Shown: positions 29,766 to 33,984, counted from the first letter of the stretch. The stretch: 38,765 bases of DNA from a virus (IMGVR_UViG_2654587569_000003), one strand, 5' to 3'. Program-made: numbers and translations. Notes: generated by a model not told the origin, from the sequence alone.

Positions 29766-29932
29766 CTGTTTTCTCTACTGGCGCAGCAGGTGTCAGGTGT
29801 TCAGGCTGACGTGCGAATTGTAAACCAGAATGCCAGGAAAAAACAAAACCCGCCGAAGCGGGTTAAGTGCGGGTGCGTTGAGGATGCCTGACTCATCAGA
29901 GGTGGCGAGGGATTTCCCCCTCGCCTGGTCTC

Positions 29933-30088
29933 TTACTCCTCAGGTTCGTAAGCTGTGAAGACAGCGACCTCCGTCTGGCCGGTTCGGATTCGTACCTCGC
30001 AGAGGTCTTTCCTCGTTACCAGTGCCGTCACTATGACGGTTAAACAGATGACGATCAGGGCGATTAACATCGCCTTTTGCTGCTTCAT
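29933..30088 (-). CDS. hok: Hok-family type I toxin (51 aa), near-identical to recalled HokD
   Basis: Hand translation MKQQKAMLIALIVICLTVIVTALVTRKDLCEVRIRTGQTEVAVFTAYEPEE; AAGGAG SD; absent from track (under 60 aa). Confidence 0.9.
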   Translation of the reverse strand: MKQQKAMLIALIVICLTVIVTALVTRKDLCEVRIRTGQTEVAVFTAYEPEE

Positions 30089-30346
30089 AGCCTGCTTCTC
30101 CTTGACCTTTCGGTCCGTAAGAGGCTAATCTCTATGTGTCGCATAGATATGGCCTCAGATTAATGTTAAGCGTCTTGCAGGACGCGTAATGTTAACTGGG
30201 GCTTTTCTCTATCTGCCTTTTGGTGTTCATGCCTGAGACAGATAGCCTCAAGCACCCGCAGTCATTCTACTTAACTAAGATTTCCCCGCAAACCGTTTTT
30301 GTCCGGCACAGTAAATATCCAACTAAACCAATGGCGTTCGCTGTAT

Positions 30347-30526
30347 TTACCGCCAGTATTCAATGCACATGACCGCCATGAACACCCCTAAAAAAAGGGC
30401 ATTTATATGTCCAAACATTAATATCAAAACATCAACTTTTTCCATATACCTTGCTGTGAAGATGATGGGCATACATGATGCGAACAACCAGAACGCAACA
30501 AACAAAAACTGCAATGCGTTTTTCAT
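30347..30526 (-). CDS. Small two-helix membrane protein (59 aa)
   Basis: Internal Met preceded by GGGGGA SD; MKNALQFLFVAFWLFASCMPIIFTA...LFLGVFMAVMCIEYWR. Confidence 0.5.
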   Translation of the reverse strand: MKNALQFLFVAFWLFASCMPIIFTARYMEKVDVLILMFGHINALFLGVFMAVMCIEYWR

Positions 30527-31008
30527 TATTCCCCCTACAATCAATGTGCAATAACATTTAAACACACCTCAATTTAGCCGGACATATAAATATCTAAACC
30601 AGAAAAAATCACTTACATAGCGTTACAAACTCTTTAGTCTAAATATTCATCGTAAAACATTCCCCATACTTATCAGCCCGTTCTGCGCCAGGTAGCTCAT
30701 TGCCTTATCTGGGAATCTGTAATCAGGTTTCCGGATGCTGGTGGATTTTCGCATTTTAGTTGTTCATAAAAGTGCACAGCTTTAACCAGTTCTTCTGATG
30801 TAACCGGGACTGGCGGGGCAGTGAATAAGGCCTGAATTTCATAGTTCGGCCTGTCGTTACAATCCTCTTTTTTCGGTACATATTTCCAGTCACCAGACCA
30901 CTACTTCCCCTGAAAGTCCGTAACGCCTTTTTTTCACGTAGCGATATCGCCATGCCACTGTTTTTGCTTGCCCCGCCGTTTCATGCCCTTCCTGATAATT
31001 AACCTCGC

Positions 31009-31185
31009 TCATTCATCGCCCCACTCATCACAATATGCTTCGACCGGAGTTTTTCCTGCTTCATAATCATCACGCCATGCTTCAGCATCAGCAGCACTGC
31101 CACCACGTAACTCTGCATAGTCCATTAACAGTTCATGCCATTCTTCAAAACCGACGTTGTATTTAGTTGAACCAAAATCAGCCAT
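31009..31185 (-). CDS. Small acidic hypothetical protein (58 aa)
   Basis: AAGAGGAAG SD; start overlaps upstream ORF stop by 8 nt; MADFGSTKYNVGFEEWHELLMDYAELRGG... Confidence 0.5.
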   Translation of the reverse strand: MADFGSTKYNVGFEEWHELLMDYAELRGGSAADAEAWRDDYEAGKTPVEAYCDEWGDE

Positions 31186-31360
31186 TTTGTTCTTCCTCTT
31201 CGTCTTTTATTTCGTGATATGAGTAATTGCAGTAGTTAAAGAAAATATCTTTTGCTTCGTCATGTATTTCATCAGGCGTCGCATCATCATCCACTTCGAA
31301 TTCATCCTCGAAATCTCCACCGGCTATTCCCGTTTCAATAATTATTTTAAACTTTCGCAT
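31178..31360 (-). CDS. Small acidic hypothetical protein (60 aa)
   Basis: ATG 6 nt after conserved hairpin with GGAGG on its 5' side. Confidence 0.5.
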   Translation of the reverse strand: MRKFKIIIETGIAGGDFEDEFEVDDDATPDEIHDEAKDIFFNYCNYSYHEIKDEEEEQNG

Positions 31361-31367
31361 TTAACTA

Positions 31368-31388
31368 CCGCCCTTTCGGGCGGCCTCC
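31368..31388 (-). promoter_or_regulatory. Conserved SD-hairpin element (GGAGG then CCGCCC-GAAA-GGGCGG) directly upstream of start codon, copy 1
   Basis: Same 21-nt motif repeated at 32432..32453 before another start codon. Confidence 0.5.
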
Positions 31389-31411
31389 TGATGTTCTGAG
31401 GGTGCAGAAAT

Positions 31412-31472
31412 CCCTCCGGTTAAGGATTAAATTTTTAACAGAGCTAAATTTAATTATTCAGTTCTGGATTTT
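31412..31472 (-). repeat. About 60-bp AT-rich repeated upstream element, copy A1
   Basis: Aligns by eye with 32679..32740 across about 55 of 60 positions. Confidence 0.55.
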
Positions 31473-31810
31473 GTCGCCCTGCGTATCCGCGCTTTCGCGT
31501 TACGCTCAATCTGAATTAGCTTTTCTATATTTTTTCGCCTTTCCCGCTCCTCCTGACGCAAGAGCCTTACATCATCTGCCAGTCTGGTTTCTCTTTTCGC
31601 CACAGAGAGCATCCAGTCAAATGGTTCCACAACTGCACCGCAGATTTTACAGCGGACCTGACGCTCTTTTTCGTCAACCCGGACAGAGGCGTGATGACAA
31701 TATGGTCTTTCCGATGGCTCATAAAGAAAATTAACCTGATTACGAGGGTCATCCTCTTTTACCGGAAATAAAACGATATTGCTTAACTCATCCTCTGGTT
31801 TTATTTCCAT
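31454..31810 (-). CDS. Hypothetical protein (118 aa) with CxxC/CHH zinc-ribbon-like motif
   Basis: AGGAGAGGAG SD; PYCHHASVRVDEKERQVRCKICGAV. Confidence 0.55.
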   Translation of the reverse strand: MEIKPEDELSNIVLFPVKEDDPRNQVNFLYEPSERPYCHHASVRVDEKERQVRCKICGAVVEPFDWMLSVAKRETRLADDVRLLRQEERERRKNIEKLIQIERNAKARIRRATKSRTE

Positions 31811-31931
31811 GCTCCTCTCCTTTGATGCGAATGCCAGCGGTAATTGAAGCCTGATAGCTAATTTCACTCACAGTACCGCCTCCTGAAAATTTAATGAACA
31901 ATTCAATACGTTCTTTGGTAATAGTGGTCAT
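31788..31931 (-). CDS. Small hypothetical protein (47 aa)
   Basis: AAGGAG SD 7 nt upstream; overlaps next gene start by 23 nt; absent from track. Confidence 0.45.
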   Translation of the reverse strand: MTTITKERIELFIKFSGGGTVSEISYQASITAGIRIKGEEHGNKTRG

Positions 31932-31941
31932 GTGTTACTCC

Positions 31942-32205
31942 TTAACCCGCAGTGCTTTCAACTGATGAGGGGAACAAAATCTTTTCATCAAACCCTGCAT
32001 TCATATCATGAACAGCAACACACCAATCCATCGACGAACGATTATCAAGAGCCTCCATGATTTCATCCATGCGGCGTAGGTCATACAGGTAAATGCTTTT
32101 ATCGCCAATGGTGTAAAAGCCAATTTTTTTCGGTGATGGACAGCGATCAAGAACTTCCTGTAATTCGTTCAACCATGCCCGTTCTTTTTTTGTCAAAGTT
32201 GCCAT
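31942..32205 (-). CDS. Hypothetical protein (87 aa from internal Met)
   Basis: AAGGAA SD; MATLTKKERAWLNELQEVLDRCPSPKKIGFY. Confidence 0.5.
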   Translation of the reverse strand: MATLTKKERAWLNELQEVLDRCPSPKKIGFYTIGDKSIYLYDLRRMDEIMEALDNRSSMDWCVAVHDMNAGFDEKILFPSSVESTAG

Positions 32206-32206
32206 A

Positions 32207-32425
32207 TCAGTTTTCCTTATACGGATTAATTTTATTGTGCAGTGTGTTGAATGACGCCCATACCACGTCGTTATACAATTCAGTAACTGGCTCAATTATT
32301 TTCCCGATTGCCCAGACAAAAATTAGAGGGGATATCGGTATCATCAATACGATAAACAGAATGAGAAACAAAAATTCTGTCGCCCTACTTTTTTGCGGAT
32401 ATTCTTTTCTGAATAATGTAGTCAT
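32207..32425 (-). CDS. Small membrane protein (72 aa)
   Basis: ATG preceded by conserved hairpin and GGGAGG; hydrophobic FLFLILFIVLMIPISPLIFVWAIG. Confidence 0.5.
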   Translation of the reverse strand: MTTLFRKEYPQKSRATEFLFLILFIVLMIPISPLIFVWAIGKIIEPVTELYNDVVWASFNTLHNKINPYKEN

Positions 32426-32431
32426 TTCTTA

Positions 32432-32453
32432 CCGCCCTTTCGGGCGGCCTCCC
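32432..32453 (-). promoter_or_regulatory. Conserved SD-hairpin element, copy 2
   Basis: GGGAGG then CCGCCC-GAAA-GGGCGG 6 nt before ATG at 32425. Confidence 0.5.
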
Positions 32454-32457
32454 GACA

Positions 32458-32670
32458 TTAATCGTTGTGGTAACTCATGGCTTCATTTGCAGCATCAACC
32501 GGATCAACCTCCCACCAGCAATAATTTGGTGCGTTTCCTTCAGGTGTCCACGGTTCCAATTCATTTTTTGCCACATTCTCGTCGCCAGTAATTTTAAAAA
32601 TCTGCTCAGAGAATTTTTTCACCCACTCGTTATATTTTTCAGTGTTAATAATTTTCTGTGTATTTGACAT
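32458..32670 (-). CDS. Hypothetical protein (70 aa)
   Basis: GGAGG SD at 3' end of repeat A2; MSNTQKIINTEKYNEWVKKF. Confidence 0.55.
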   Translation of the reverse strand: MSNTQKIINTEKYNEWVKKFSEQIFKITGDENVAKNELEPWTPEGNAPNYCWWEVDPVDAANEAMSYHND

Positions 32671-32678
32671 AGATATAC

Positions 32679-32740
32679 CTCCAGTTAAGGATTAAATTTT
32701 ATTTACAGTGCTGAACTTAATTATTCAGATTTGGATTATG
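32679..32740 (-). repeat. About 60-bp AT-rich repeated upstream element, copy A2
   Basis: Homologous to 31412..31472; ends in the SD of gene 32458..32670. Confidence 0.55.
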
Positions 32741-32775
32741 CTTTCTCTTCACGAAGTTCCGATTGTTAATTTGGC

Positions 32776-33198
32776 TCACAACAGCACCTTCTGAAAATTA
32801 CCCTGATAGAAAGCCAGTACACGCTGCATAGCTTCGCTCTTCCGGCACTCGCTACAGATTATGTTTTGACGCCTGTCGTAGCGGCGTATTTCTCCGTCTG
32901 GTAATGGCCAGATAAGGTCAGGATCAACCACAGATGGTTTCTTCAGATTTGCCCTTGAGAGTTTTTTGCGGGCGTTTTGCCAGTCCTTACGCGCCTGTTC
33001 AGACGGGAATAACCCGTAACCAGAGTTGTATACATCGCCACTGGCAACCAGCTCTCTGGCGAGAACACTCATCAGATATCTTGTCGCACCTGTCTTGGCT
33101 TCCAGTTGCCGTAACGTCTCGCGCCCACTCCGGCGTACTAGCTCAACAACCTGCCCTTTAATTTTTTCCCGCTCTTCTTGTGTAAATACTTTTGCCAT
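32776..33198 (-). CDS. Hypothetical protein (140 aa)
   Basis: Internal ATG 33198 with GGAGG SD; MAKVFTQEEREKIKGQVVELVRRSGRETL. Confidence 0.55.
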   Translation of the reverse strand: MAKVFTQEEREKIKGQVVELVRRSGRETLRQLEAKTGATRYLMSVLARELVASGDVYNSGYGLFPSEQARKDWQNARKKLSRANLKKPSVVDPDLIWPLPDGEIRRYDRRQNIICSECRKSEAMQRVLAFYQGNFQKVLL

Positions 33199-33213
33199 AA
33201 GCGCCTCCGGCAA

Positions 33214-33984
33214 TCACTTTTCCGATACAACACGGCGGGAAGAATCAGTAATCTGTCGAACAATATCCCGGTGCTTGTTCAGCTCCCGCAGCGCGGCGCA
33301 GACTCGCTCCCACTTCTGAACATCACTTTTCGCCCTGCGCAGCGCCAGGTTTGCCCTGCGCAGGGACGGAAAAATCAGCTCATCTGCTTGCGTTTCGGTA
33401 AACGATGGCAACGACTGCACAATGTCCGCCACAGTTTCTGTTTTAATTTCTTCCTGTGTTGCGGCTTCCCGGCCTGGTAACGCAGCACCTGCTGGCTGAG
33501 GAAAGGCCTTACCATCACTTTCCGTTACCAGCGCGGCTTTCGGCTCTGCTGGTAAATTATCGCCCGGCATGCAGTAACGAAATTTACCGTTCTGATTAAC
33601 GCGTGCCAGCCGCCCCGTTGCGGTTACCACCGCCAGCGTGGAAGCAACCTTGCGAGTACTGACACCGAACTTACCCGCCAGTTCCTCACACGTTTTAGCC
33701 CCATCCTGACCGATAAACTCAATCATCATGTCTGCGGTAACTTTTTGTTCGACCTCCCCGGTCAGCATATCCTGTGCTTCAGATTTTACTGGCCGCTCTT
33801 CGGTTACCCGGGATTCACCTTCGCCAGCCAGAAACCAGGTGTGACCAGTTTTATCAACGACGCCATTTCTTTTGAGTTCCCACAGCTCGTTGACAGCCTC
33901 TTCACGACTGATTCCAAGGCGAGCTGCCACCACATGTGAAGAGGCTTTTTTCAGTGCTTTCAGTGCGTCAGATACGGTTTCCAT
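33214..33984 (-). CDS. Hypothetical protein (256 aa) with HTH-like segments
   Basis: GGAGGA SD; follows DnaC-like gene; family not recognised. Confidence 0.55.
   Translation of the reverse strand: METVSDALKALKKASSHVVAARLGISREEAVNELWELKRNGVVDKTGHTWFLAGEGESRVTEERPVKSEAQDMLTGEVEQKVTADMMIEFIGQDGAKTCEELAGKFGVSTRKVASTLAVVTATGRLARVNQNGKFRYCMPGDNLPAEPKAALVTESDGKAFPQPAGAALPGREAATQEEIKTETVADIVQSLPSFTETQADELIFPSLRRANLALRRAKSDVQKWERVCAALRELNKHRDIVRQITDSSRRVVSEK

What the first reader, a model, noticed from the sequence alone, without database searches (positions are those of the whole stretch)
30340..33215. Island of eight or more small genes with a repeated 60-bp upstream element and a conserved SD-hairpin-ATG initiation structure
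Between the replication module and hok, at least eight minus-strand genes of 47-140 aa are tightly packed, several with overlapping start/stop codons; none has a family I can recognise (two acidic, two membrane, one zinc-ribbon-like). Two intergenic sites share an about 60-bp AT-rich element (31412..31472 and 32679..32740). Two start codons are each preceded by GGAGG + CCGCCC-GAAA-GGGCGG + 5-6 nt + ATG (31368..31388, 32432..32453), which puts the Shine-Dalgarno about 25 nt from the start unless the hairpin folds. This is the early-right region where lambdoid phages often carry anti-defence or host-takeover cargo.
Basis: seen in the sequence. Interest (0 to 1): 0.7.

Follow-up and report, generated by a model that had tools for sequence, protein, structure and literature searches.

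The report
Portable hairpin ribosome site at prophage gene junctions
Two repeated sequences in a block of small prophage genes are conserved gene-to-gene junctions, found in about 44% of complete E. coli genomes, at which genes get swapped; one of them probably uses a small RNA hairpin to bring a distant ribosome-binding site next to the start codon, as in two phage T4 genes.

Summary
The window is an E. coli lambdoid (Rac/Qin-type) prophage. Between its replication genes and hokD lie eight intact small genes, one pseudogene and one unannotated ORF, all on the minus strand.

GGAGG-CCGCCC-GAAA-GGGCGG-TA occurs twice, exactly (31366-31388 and 32430-32452). The AT-rich element also occurs twice (31406-31473 and 32671-32740, about 85% identical).

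The two repeats are the 5' and 3' ends of one junction unit. This unit either contains a 70-aa gene (copy 2) or is "empty" (copy 1).

- **Spread:** the unit is in 2413 of 5426 complete E. coli genomes.
- **Flanks:** at least 4 unrelated long genes end in it. At least 6 unrelated gene families follow it.
- **Start codon spacing:** the ATG lies 6-10 nt after the stem, and that spacer contains no Shine-Dalgarno (SD) sequence. The same gene families without the hairpin carry an ordinary SD.
- **Hairpin conservation:** 237 copies were examined. None has a broken stem; the only stem changes are C-to-U, which keep a G·U pair.

Best reading: these are conserved mosaic "boundary" junctions, and the second one doubles as a split ribosome-binding site of the T4 gene 38/25 type. 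The translational role is inferred, not shown, and covariation is uninformative. The functions of the small proteins remain unknown, and nothing here supports or excludes anti-defence cargo.

The parts
32776..33198 (-). lygF (DUF977, Ren-like PHROG 142). It is the last gene before the cassette array, and its stop codon overlaps a GTG.
32671..32740 (-). AT-rich junction element, copy 2. It reads CTGAATAATTAA, then an AU-rich spacer, AATCCTTAAC and the SD TGGAGG, followed 7 nt later by the ATG of the 70-aa gene.
32458..32670 (-). 70-aa gene (phrog_4659). It is the optional cargo between the element and the hairpin.
32430..32452 (-). SD-hairpin module, copy 2: GGAGG 32448-32452, stem-loop 32432-32447, TA 32430-32431. 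The 6-nt spacer TAAGAA leads to the ATG at 32425.
32207..32425 (-). DUF4014 gene (72 aa, one predicted membrane helix), started from the hairpin module.
31942..32205 (-). 87-aa gene (phrog_1714), with an ordinary SD (AAGGA).
31788..31931 (-). 47-aa mosaic ORF (phrog_19884). It contains a second copy of the lygF 3'-end junction at 31853-31891.
31815..31835 (-). A third junction type, GGCATTCGCATCAAAGGAGAG. It holds the SD of the 118-aa gene and is shared by at least 9 downstream gene families elsewhere.
31454..31810 (-). 118-aa zinc-ribbon-like gene (phrog_1621). Its last codons (..TE, TAA) lie inside element copy 1.
31406..31473 (-). AT-rich junction element, copy 1. Its SD (CGGAGGG) is not followed by a start codon.
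31389..31405 (-). 17-nt filler GCACCCTCAGAACATCA, which takes the place of the 70-aa gene in the "empty" unit.
31366..31388 (-). SD-hairpin module, copy 1: GGAGG 31384-31388, stem-loop 31368-31383, TA 31366-31367. The 7-nt spacer TAGTTAA leads to the ATG at 31360.
31178..31360 (-). DUF7167 gene (60 aa, acidic), started from the hairpin module.
31009..31185 (-). 58-aa acidic gene. It matches the C-terminal part of phrog_519 and overlaps DUF7167 by 8 nt.
30647..31012 (-). Frameshifted pseudogene, the last cassette of the array.

Best explanation
The island is the variable accessory-gene array of an E. coli lambdoid (Rac/Qin-type) prophage. It sits between the replication genes and hokD, is co-oriented with the early-right genes and has no promoter or terminator of its own, so it is probably read as part of that operon. 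Its cassettes are joined by a small set of nearly invariant junction sequences that contain an SD.

- Left end, about 60 nt: the last codon and stop of the upstream gene (CTGAATAA), then an AU-rich unstructured leader and an SD.
- Right end, about 26 nt: RGGAGG, then a 6-7 bp G+C hairpin with a GAAA tetraloop, then TA.
- Between the two ends lies either the 70-aa gene (copy 2 in the window) or a 17-nt filler (copy 1).

Shown here: the unit is conserved as a block. Sequence homology breaks exactly at its two outer edges, and left and right neighbours combine freely. The unit therefore marks recombination breakpoints.

Inferred:
- In the mRNA the hairpin loops out 16 nt, so the GGAGG that is 22-26 nt from the start codon in linear sequence sits at an effective 6-10 nt. 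This would be a split ribosome-binding site, as in phage T4 genes 38 and 25. Any gene recombined in behind the hairpin would then be translated without needing an SD of its own.
- Because the roughly 70-nt block is near-identical wherever it occurs, it offers a homology patch for RecA, Red or RecET recombination. That would explain how cassettes move between prophages, and between the early-right and early-left regions.
For: Context: the window is 100% identical to E. coli chromosomes and carries the gene order DnaC-like, DUF1627, DUF977, small genes, hokD.

The repeats are not chance.

The 126-nt unit is in 2413 of 5426 complete E. coli genomes, with up to 7 copies per genome. It also occurs in the early-left ea22 region of Stx2a phages.

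Breakpoints:
- Conservation is 0.92-1.00 from about -40 through the TA that follows the hairpin, apart from three polymorphic filler positions (0.70-0.88). It falls to about 0.5 directly after GGGCGGTA.
- Only two kinds of sequence lie upstream of the hairpin: the filler, or the end of the 70-aa gene.
- At least 6 unrelated gene families lie downstream.
- At least 4 different long genes end in the element.
- More than 40 distinct gene orders combine these parts.
- A further junction, CATCAAAGGAGAG, behaves the same way.

Split ribosome-binding site:
- The hairpin is -15.5 kcal/mol and forms with mean probability 0.98 across 68 contexts.
- Spacers after the stem are 6, 7, 8, 9 or 10 nt, A/T-rich and without an SD.
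- In-frame stops (TAA ATG; TAA GAA ATG) fix the start codons. Pfam models align from residue 1 for DUF4014 and residue 2 for DUF7167.
- DUF4014 genes (7 of 60) and Ea22-like genes (3 of 21) that lack the hairpin have GGAG or AAGGA 5-8 nt from the ATG.
- Every other gene of the island has an SD at ordinary distance.
- Of 237 copies in 2.09 Mb, 226 are exact. The only stem changes are C-to-U at three 5'-arm positions (10 copies). One variant also changes the loop from GAAA to GGCA, which is still GNRA. No variant breaks the stem.

Precedent: in T4 gene 38 a spacing of 22 nt is reduced to 5, and in gene 25 a spacing of 27 nt is reduced to 11, by an intervening structure. Both were confirmed by mutation (PMC3014915).
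Against: - No compensatory double change exists, so the covariation test carries no weight.
- All copies are close relatives. Nucleotide diversity in the hairpin is about ten times lower than at neighbouring third codon positions (0.0012 against 0.013-0.024), but this rests on 1 against 4-10 segregating sites. Recent common descent could explain the invariance.
- A matched test in 5426 genomes found neither the stem-breaking variants nor the wobble control, so it could not discriminate.
- One downstream family (MEITKER, 11-nt spacer) brings its own GGAG. The hairpin is therefore not always needed and can hitch-hike.
- The predicted G·U closing pair takes the last G of GGAGG.
- Predicted accessibility of the SD and the AUG averages only about 0.5.
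- There are no expression or translation data, and no direct evidence that recombination happens in the block.
Confidence: 0.55

Rival explanations
1. The hairpin is mainly an mRNA stability or processing element. It could act as a barrier to 3'-to-5' exonucleases that protects the upstream cistron. Alternatively it could become a protective 5' stem after RNase E cuts in the AU-rich element. Downstream genes would then be translated from the A-rich leader, or from the weak GGCGGU in the 3' arm.
For: It is a very stable GNRA-capped stem in an intercistronic position. An AU-rich single-stranded stretch lies about 40 nt upstream in the empty unit. The hairpin always follows either the 70-aa gene or the element, so it travels with its upstream partner. 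GGCGGT, one mismatch from GGAGGT, lies 5-6 nt before the two window ATGs.
Against: A stabiliser alone does not explain three observations. A perfect GGAGG always abuts the stem. The ATG always falls 6-10 nt after the stem. The spacer has no SD, although the same gene families have one when the hairpin is absent. Using GGCGGU would require melting a -15.5 kcal/mol stem. The two roles are not exclusive.
Confidence: 0.15
2. The repeats have no function of their own. They are recently spread intergenic DNA that is identical by descent. The SD-hairpin-ATG layout would be an accident carried along with the genes.
For: All copies are at least 95% identical and confined to E. coli/Shigella prophages. 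Only 1 enterobacterial hit was found among the representative genomes of 185,579 species. Flanking homologous genes are equally conserved. There is no covariation.
Against: The block stays constant while both flanks are replaced by unrelated genes. Genes placed behind the hairpin have no other SD, yet they belong to conserved Pfam and PHROG families. No stem-breaking variant occurs in 237 copies, whereas 5 of 17 filler positions vary in 101 copies.
Confidence: 0.15
3. The hairpin is an operator for an RNA-binding protein. This could be a phage translational repressor, or an N-like protein that recognises a boxB-like GNRA hairpin. One factor would then control several cassettes together.
For: The GCCC-GAAA-GGGC core resembles lambda boxB (GCCCUGAAAAAGGGC; my own knowledge, not tested here). 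The identical hairpin is repeated in early operons, both early-right and early-left. The loop variant GGCA keeps the GNRA form.
Against: No boxA-like sequence is visible in the 35 nt upstream of either copy (read). The sites lie far from the early promoters, between cistrons. The loop is a tetraloop, not a pentaloop. No candidate binding protein was identified. Rfam reports nothing at these sites.
Confidence: 0.07
4. The hairpin is a transcription terminator, or the element is a promoter. This would make the unit a moron-like or PeSL-like regulatory cassette.
For: A G+C-rich stem next to an AT-rich stretch superficially resembles the promoter-plus-stem-loop cassettes of T4-type phages (PMC2839356).
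Against: No T-run follows the stem on either strand. The terminator scan does not report it, and the promoter scan finds no site in either element copy. The -10-like stretch differs between the copies by indels.
Confidence: 0.03

Closest known systems
Split (discontinuous) ribosome-binding sites of phage T4 genes 38 and 25 (Nivinskas et al. 1999; Malys and Nivinskas 2009; reviewed in PMC3014915)
   Same: The SD lies 22-27 nt from the start codon. A stable stem-loop fills the gap, and the folded spacing is 5-11 nt. In this window the spacing goes from 22-23 nt to 6-7 nt, almost the same as T4 gene 38 (22 to 5).
   Different: The T4 cases are each tied to one gene and were proven by mutation and probing. 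Here one identical module precedes at least 6 unrelated gene families in temperate lambdoid prophages, it coincides with a mosaic breakpoint, and it is untested. The loop here is GAAA.
Conserved boundary sequences at gene junctions as targets for homologous recombination in mosaic phage genomes (model summarised in PMC3233612; Susskind-Botstein modular theory)
   Same: Short conserved sequences lie exactly at gene boundaries, with unrelated sequence on either side in different genomes, and the modules recombine combinatorially.
   Different: I found no description of this particular unit in the searchable literature. The unit is composite: two conserved ends with optional cargo between them. 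One end also carries a structured translation signal.
PeSL cassettes (promoter-early stem-loops) of T4-type phages, which mediate modular shuffling in hyperplastic regions (PMC2839356, PMC4122927)
   Same: Repeated regulatory cassettes of about 60-100 nt with a stem-loop flank small genes of unknown function, and exchanges occur at them.
   Different: PeSLs are strong sigma-70 promoters plus functional terminators. Here no promoter or terminator signature was found, and the regulatory content appears to be translational.
The exo-xis / ea22 accessory region of lambda and Stx phages (PMC7093339, PMC4195576)
   Same: The same cassettes (118-aa, 70-aa, DUF7167, 58-aa, DUF4014 and Ea22-like genes) and the same junction unit occur in the ea22 region of ArgO145-type Stx2a phages.
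   Different: In this window they lie in the early-right region, between the replication genes and hokD. No homology to the studied lambda genes orf60a, orf61, orf63 or orf73 was tested or claimed.

Membership tests
Split ribosome-binding site (T4 gene 38/25 type) | A strong SD lies too far (more than 15 nt) upstream of the start codon in linear sequence. | tested here: met
   GGAGG ends 23 nt (31360 ATG) and 22 nt (32425 ATG) before the start. The range is 22-26 nt across families.
Split ribosome-binding site (T4 gene 38/25 type) | A stable stem-loop occupies the intervening sequence and leaves the SD and the AUG outside it. | tested here: met
   -15.5 kcal/mol; pair probability 0.98 in 68 contexts. 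The seventh (G·U) pair would take the last G of the SD.
Split ribosome-binding site (T4 gene 38/25 type) | The folded spacing falls in the functional range, and no alternative SD lies at normal distance. | tested here: met
   Spacers are 6-10 nt, A/T-rich and without an SD. The one exception is a family with an 11-nt spacer that has its own GGAG. Homologues without the hairpin carry an ordinary SD.
Split ribosome-binding site (T4 gene 38/25 type) | The structure is conserved through compensatory change. | tested here: inconclusive
   100% of cells are paired, but there is no double change. Only C-to-U changes occur, at 3 positions. The genome-wide variant test was uninformative.
Split ribosome-binding site (T4 gene 38/25 type) | Stem-disrupting mutations lower translation and compensatory ones restore it. 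| not testable with these tools
   This needs reporter fusions, toeprinting or structure probing.
Phage mosaic boundary (linker) sequence | A short conserved sequence at a gene boundary has unrelated sequence on each side in different genomes. | tested here: met
   The conservation profile drops at the block edge. At least 6 gene families lie downstream, and at least 4 different long upstream genes end in the element.
Phage mosaic boundary (linker) sequence | Left and right modules assort combinatorially. | tested here: met
   The unit occurs with or without the 70-aa gene, and each form occurs in front of DUF7167, DUF4014 and Ea22-like genes. It follows either lygF or the 118-aa gene. More than 40 gene orders were seen.
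Phage mosaic boundary (linker) sequence | Recombination is shown to take place within the conserved sequence. | not testable with these tools
   This needs crosses or population-scale breakpoint mapping.
PeSL / moron-type regulatory cassette | A sigma-70 promoter lies in the repeated element. | tested here: not met
   No promoter-like site lies in 31406-31473 or 32671-32740.
PeSL / intrinsic terminator | A G+C stem-loop is followed by a U-run. | tested here: not met
   The stem is followed by TAGTTAAATG or TAAGAAATG. The terminator scan does not report it.
Lambda-type nut site (boxA + boxB) | A boxA lies just upstream of the hairpin, and the site lies just downstream of an early promoter. | tested here: not met
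   No CGCTCTT-like boxA is seen in the 35 nt upstream of either copy (read). The sites are intercistronic, more than 3 kb into the operon.
Any Rfam RNA family | A match to a curated covariance model. | tested here: not met
   Only sok (30086-30257) passes its threshold. Nothing is reported at the hairpins or the elements even at E up to 1.

The most novel reading that the evidence does not exclude
The element-to-hairpin unit is an active cassette-exchange module rather than a passive homology patch, a lambdoid counterpart of PeSL mini-circles or integron attC sites. In this reading the G+C hairpin (as single-stranded DNA or RNA) and the AT-rich arm are recognised by a phage recombination function. 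Cassettes such as the 70-aa gene would be excised and inserted between the two ends. The empty unit would be the vacant docking site.
Probability: 0.06. Interest if true: 0.8.

Novelty: new variant of a known kind. Interest (0 to 1): 0.45.

Why it matters
Only two split ribosome-binding sites are well documented, both in phage T4. If this one works as proposed, it would be a third natural case. It would also be the first that is portable: one identical leader serving at least six unrelated gene families.

It would tie a translation signal to the places where lambdoid phage genomes exchange genes. That offers a concrete reason why mosaic breakpoints fall at gene starts: a gene dropped behind the module would be expressed at once.

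There are also practical consequences.
- The unit is in about 44% of complete E. coli genomes, so it affects annotation. Some database entries for DUF7167 carry false N-terminal extensions that translate the leader and the hairpin.
- It is a compact natural part that could be tried as a context-independent ribosome-binding site.

None of this says what the small proteins do.

Tried and rejected
- **Three-frame stop.** CTGAATAATTAA has a stop in each frame, so I tested whether it is a universal terminator. Long upstream genes all use the first TAA, TGA is never used, and the second TAA is used only by remnants of 7-40 codons. Rejected.
- **Promoter or terminator (PeSL or moron).** No promoter or terminator signature was found.
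- **Small upstream ORF or read-through across the hairpin.** There is no canonical start codon, and in-frame stops lie directly before both ATGs.
- **Orphan-SD hairpin in the empty unit (GAGGG...CCCTC).** Natural variants both keep and break this pairing. It does not appear to be selected.
- **Covariation.** RNAalifold and pair counting on 17 distinct contexts found no double changes.
- **Diversity comparison.** The hairpin is less diverse than the filler and third codon positions, in the expected direction, but there are too few segregating sites.
- **Cross-species scan.** The pattern RGGAGG-N6-GAAA-GGGCGGTA was scanned across the representative genomes of 185,579 species. It gave 35 hits, about the number expected by chance, and only one (Shigella flexneri) is enterobacterial. 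No extra variation was gained.
- **BLAST of mutated 79-mers against 5426 E. coli genomes.** Neither of two stem-breaking G-to-A variants nor the C-to-T wobble control had a full-length perfect hit. The identity-band counts are confounded by clipped alignments. Uninformative.
- **Insulation idea.** I tested whether the hairpin keeps the SD and AUG single-stranded in every context. Mean unpaired probability is only about 0.5. Not supported.
- **Protein function.** Pfam, PHROGs, NCBIfam, PADLOC, four PDB sequence searches, and an AlphaFold model of DUF7167 (pLDDT 77.6) searched with Foldseek against the PDB were run. The outcome is family names without function and no significant structural neighbour.
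- **Literature.** The hairpin sequence returned no paper, and the searches on DUF4014, DUF7167 and DUF977 returned nothing on these proteins or elements.
- **K-12 as a model.** Its Rac and Qin prophages lack all three junction types.

Full report
**Context.** The stretch 30000-33600 is 100% identical to several E. coli chromosomes. In E. coli O111:H2 strain 12A the RefSeq annotation gives this order, all on the minus strand: Cro/CI-type regulator, YdaT-family protein, helix-turn-helix replication protein, DnaC-like ATPase, DUF1627 (YdaW), DUF977 (LygF). Eight small genes and a pseudogene follow, then hokD, DUF968, RusA and further late-region genes. The window is therefore a Rac/Qin-type lambdoid prophage. 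The island occupies the position that ren and the nin genes hold in lambda. Rfam finds sok at 30086-30257 and nothing else above threshold.

**The observation.** Both repeats are real.
- GGAGGCCGCCCGAAAGGGCGGTA occurs twice exactly (31366-31388 and 32430-32452, minus strand). None is expected by chance.
- The AT-rich element is 31406-31473 against 32671-32740, about 85% identical with one 2-nt indel.
- The hairpin is 6 G-C pairs plus a G·U pair under a GAAA loop, at -15.5 kcal/mol.
- The ATG of DUF7167 follows after 7 nt, and that of DUF4014 after 6 nt.
- In-frame stop codons lie immediately before both ATGs. The Pfam models align from residue 1 for DUF4014 and residue 2 for DUF7167. The start codons are therefore not in doubt.

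**The genes.** All of them fall in catalogued families of unknown function. These are DUF977 (phrog_142, "Ren-like"), phrog_4659 (70 aa), DUF4014 (72 aa), phrog_1714 (87 aa), phrog_19884 (47 aa), phrog_1621 (118 aa, with a weak zinc-ribbon match), DUF7167 (60 aa) and part of phrog_519 (58 aa). NCBIfam, PADLOC and PDB sequence searches gave nothing. An AlphaFold model of DUF7167 (strand-strand-helix-strand, pLDDT 77.6) has no significant neighbour in the PDB. I cannot say what the proteins do, and the anti-defence suggestion stays untested.

- Downstream of the hairpin I found at least six unrelated gene families. DUF7167 has a 7-nt spacer. DUF4014 has 6. An Ea22-like family has 9, and its MAEL-type variants 8. 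An MQEIKEN family has 9, an MVTTGYN family 10, and an MEITKER family 11.
- Upstream there are only two kinds of sequence. One is the 3' end of the 70-aa gene. The other is the AT-rich element followed by GATTTCTGCACCCTCAGAACATCA.
- The 70-aa gene itself is always preceded by the element.

So the two repeats are the left and right ends of a single unit, which is either filled by the 70-aa gene or empty. The window holds one of each: lygF-[element]-70aa-[hairpin]-DUF4014 and 118aa-[element][hairpin]-DUF7167.

At least four different long genes end in the element's left edge (CTGAATAA), all in the same frame, and further upstream sequence classes precede it. An ungapped conservation profile over 64 distinct contexts stays at 0.92-1.00 from about -40 through the TA after the hairpin, apart from three polymorphic filler positions (0.70-0.88). 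It drops to about 0.5 immediately after GGGCGGTA.

A map of gene order in the fetched loci shows more than 40 architectures, in which the parts combine freely. The unit occurs with or without the 70-aa gene. Each form occurs in front of DUF7167, DUF4014 or Ea22-like genes. It follows either lygF or the 118-aa gene. In ArgO145-type Stx2a phages the same cassettes and unit lie in the early-left ea22 region.

A further junction, CATCAAAGGAGAG (window 31815-31835), likewise precedes at least 9 gene families and follows many upstream classes. Conserved junctions that contain an SD are therefore the rule in this array. This matches the "boundary sequence" model of phage mosaicism (PMC3233612). It also resembles, in outline, the PeSL cassettes of T4-type phages (PMC2839356). 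Unlike PeSLs, however, the unit has neither a promoter nor a terminator signature.

**Prevalence.** The 126-nt empty unit matches 2413 of 5426 complete E. coli genomes, with up to 7 places per genome. Among deposited phages it matches only 21 records. All are E. coli phages except one labelled Actinobacillus. A degenerate pattern scanned across one genome from each of 185,579 species gave 35 hits, about the number expected by chance. Only one of them (Shigella flexneri) is enterobacterial. K-12's Rac and Qin prophages lack all three junction types.

**How the hairpin probably works.** The layout is that of the split ribosome-binding sites of T4 genes 38 and 25. There an intervening structure reduces an SD-to-AUG distance of 22 nt to 5, or of 27 nt to 11, and mutations that weaken the structure lower translation (PMC3014915). 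Five observations here support the same reading.
- A perfect GGAGG always abuts the stem.
- The stem forms with probability about 0.98 in all 68 contexts tested.
- Whatever the gene, the ATG lies 6-10 nt after the stem, across an A/T-rich spacer without an SD.
- Members of the same families that lack the hairpin have an ordinary SD 5-8 nt from the start. This holds for 7 of 60 DUF4014 genes and 3 of 21 Ea22-like genes.
- Every other gene in the island has an SD at normal distance.

Among 237 copies in 2.09 Mb of fetched DNA, 226 are exact. The only stem changes are C-to-U at three positions of the 5' arm (10 copies). These keep a G·U pair on the mRNA-sense strand only. One of these variants also changes the loop from GAAA to GGCA, which is still GNRA. 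No stem-breaking variant was seen.

**Limits.**
- There is no compensatory double change, so RNAalifold and pair counting add nothing beyond "always paired".
- Diversity in the hairpin is about a tenth of that at neighbouring third codon positions, but it rests on very few sites.
- A matched search of 5426 genomes for single G-to-A and C-to-T stem variants found neither kind, so it could not discriminate.
- One downstream family has its own SD, so the hairpin can be present without being needed.
- The predicted accessibility of the SD and the AUG is only moderate.

The translational role is therefore an inference from architecture and precedent. I put it at a little over one half. The boundary or mosaic role of the block is well supported descriptively, but recombination within it has not been observed.

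**Rivals.**
- An mRNA-stabilising or processing hairpin is compatible with the position. It does not explain the SD-stem-ATG geometry, and it may coexist with the split site.
- Pure identity by descent cannot be excluded, given the low diversity. It leaves conserved genes without any ribosome-binding site.
- A boxB-like protein operator is possible but has no supporting feature beyond the GNRA loop.
- A terminator or promoter is disfavoured by the sequence.

**Novelty.** I found no paper that contains the hairpin sequence or discusses these DUFs. The search covers open-access text only. Both ingredients, the split ribosome-binding site and boundary sequences, are known. Their combination as one portable, very widespread module in temperate E. 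coli phages appears to be undescribed.

**Verdict.** This is a real and common feature, an untested variant of known mechanisms. It is of moderate interest, and its immediate value is for annotation, since false N-terminal extensions that read through the leader exist in databases.

Noticed in passing
window 30347-30526 (-): An unannotated 59-aa ORF that looks like a membrane protein (MKNALQFLFVAFWLF...), with GGGGG 4 nt upstream of the ATG. It lies between the pseudogene and the hok/sok locus. PGAP does not call it, and only 3 phage records contain it (95-97% identity). One of those records annotates the opposite strand as "hornerin".
   Followed up: partly
window 29843-30257 (-): A complete hok/sok locus: hokD at 29933-30088, and a sok Rfam match at 30086-30257 (106.7 bits). 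Just downstream is a weak, sub-threshold isrK-like match (29843-29924, 26 bits) that contains a clean intrinsic terminator at 29847-29864.
   Followed up: no
window 31788-31931 and 32761-32799 (-): The 47-aa ORF is a mosaic. Positions 31853-31891 repeat the 3'-end junction of lygF (77% identity), including a GTG at the position that overlaps the lygF stop codon in the other copy. phrog_37408 matches only residues 21-47. This suggests that a smaller gene starting at that GTG was fused to foreign 5' sequence.
   Followed up: partly
window 32717-32779 (-): A 20-codon ORF starts at a GTG that overlaps the lygF stop codon. It ends inside element copy 2 in ..NPNLNN. This ending looks like a frame-shifted remnant of the 3' end of the 118-aa gene (..KSRTE).
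   Followed up: partly
window 31815-31835 (-); loci L001-L213: A third conserved junction, GGCATTCGCATCAAAGGAGAG, gives different upstream genes the same C-terminal peptide (..GIRIKGE). It supplies the SD for at least 9 different downstream gene families.
   Followed up: partly
proteins P0003, P0004, P0009 (DUF7167 homologues): Database entries for DUF7167 carry N-terminal extensions of 24-33 aa. In P0003 and P0009 the extension translates the leader and hairpin (..LTGGISAPSEHQEAARKGGSE..). These are probably start-codon miscalls, made because no SD lies at the usual distance.
   Followed up: partly
locus L196 (IMG/VR), two copies: A divergent unit has a poly-G insertion after the element's SD (CGGAGGGGGGGGGAGGCG...). 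Its hairpin is CTGTCC-GGCA-GGGCGG, with two wobble pairs and a different GNRA loop. It may be a separate lineage or a sequencing artefact.
   Followed up: no
phage record PP818812.1 (Actinobacillus phage vB_Apl-pPE4): A phage recorded as infecting Actinobacillus pleuropneumoniae carries this E. coli Rac-type island, with junction unit and hok, at about 90-93% identity. That is unexpected for a Pasteurellaceae host and may be a host mis-assignment.
   Followed up: no
E. coli K-12 MG1655 Rac and Qin (L250, L251): K-12's Qin prophage has relBE, ydfV and flxA next to hokD where this window has the cassette array. K-12's Rac is deleted after ydaW. Neither contains any of the three junction sequences.
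   Followed up: yes
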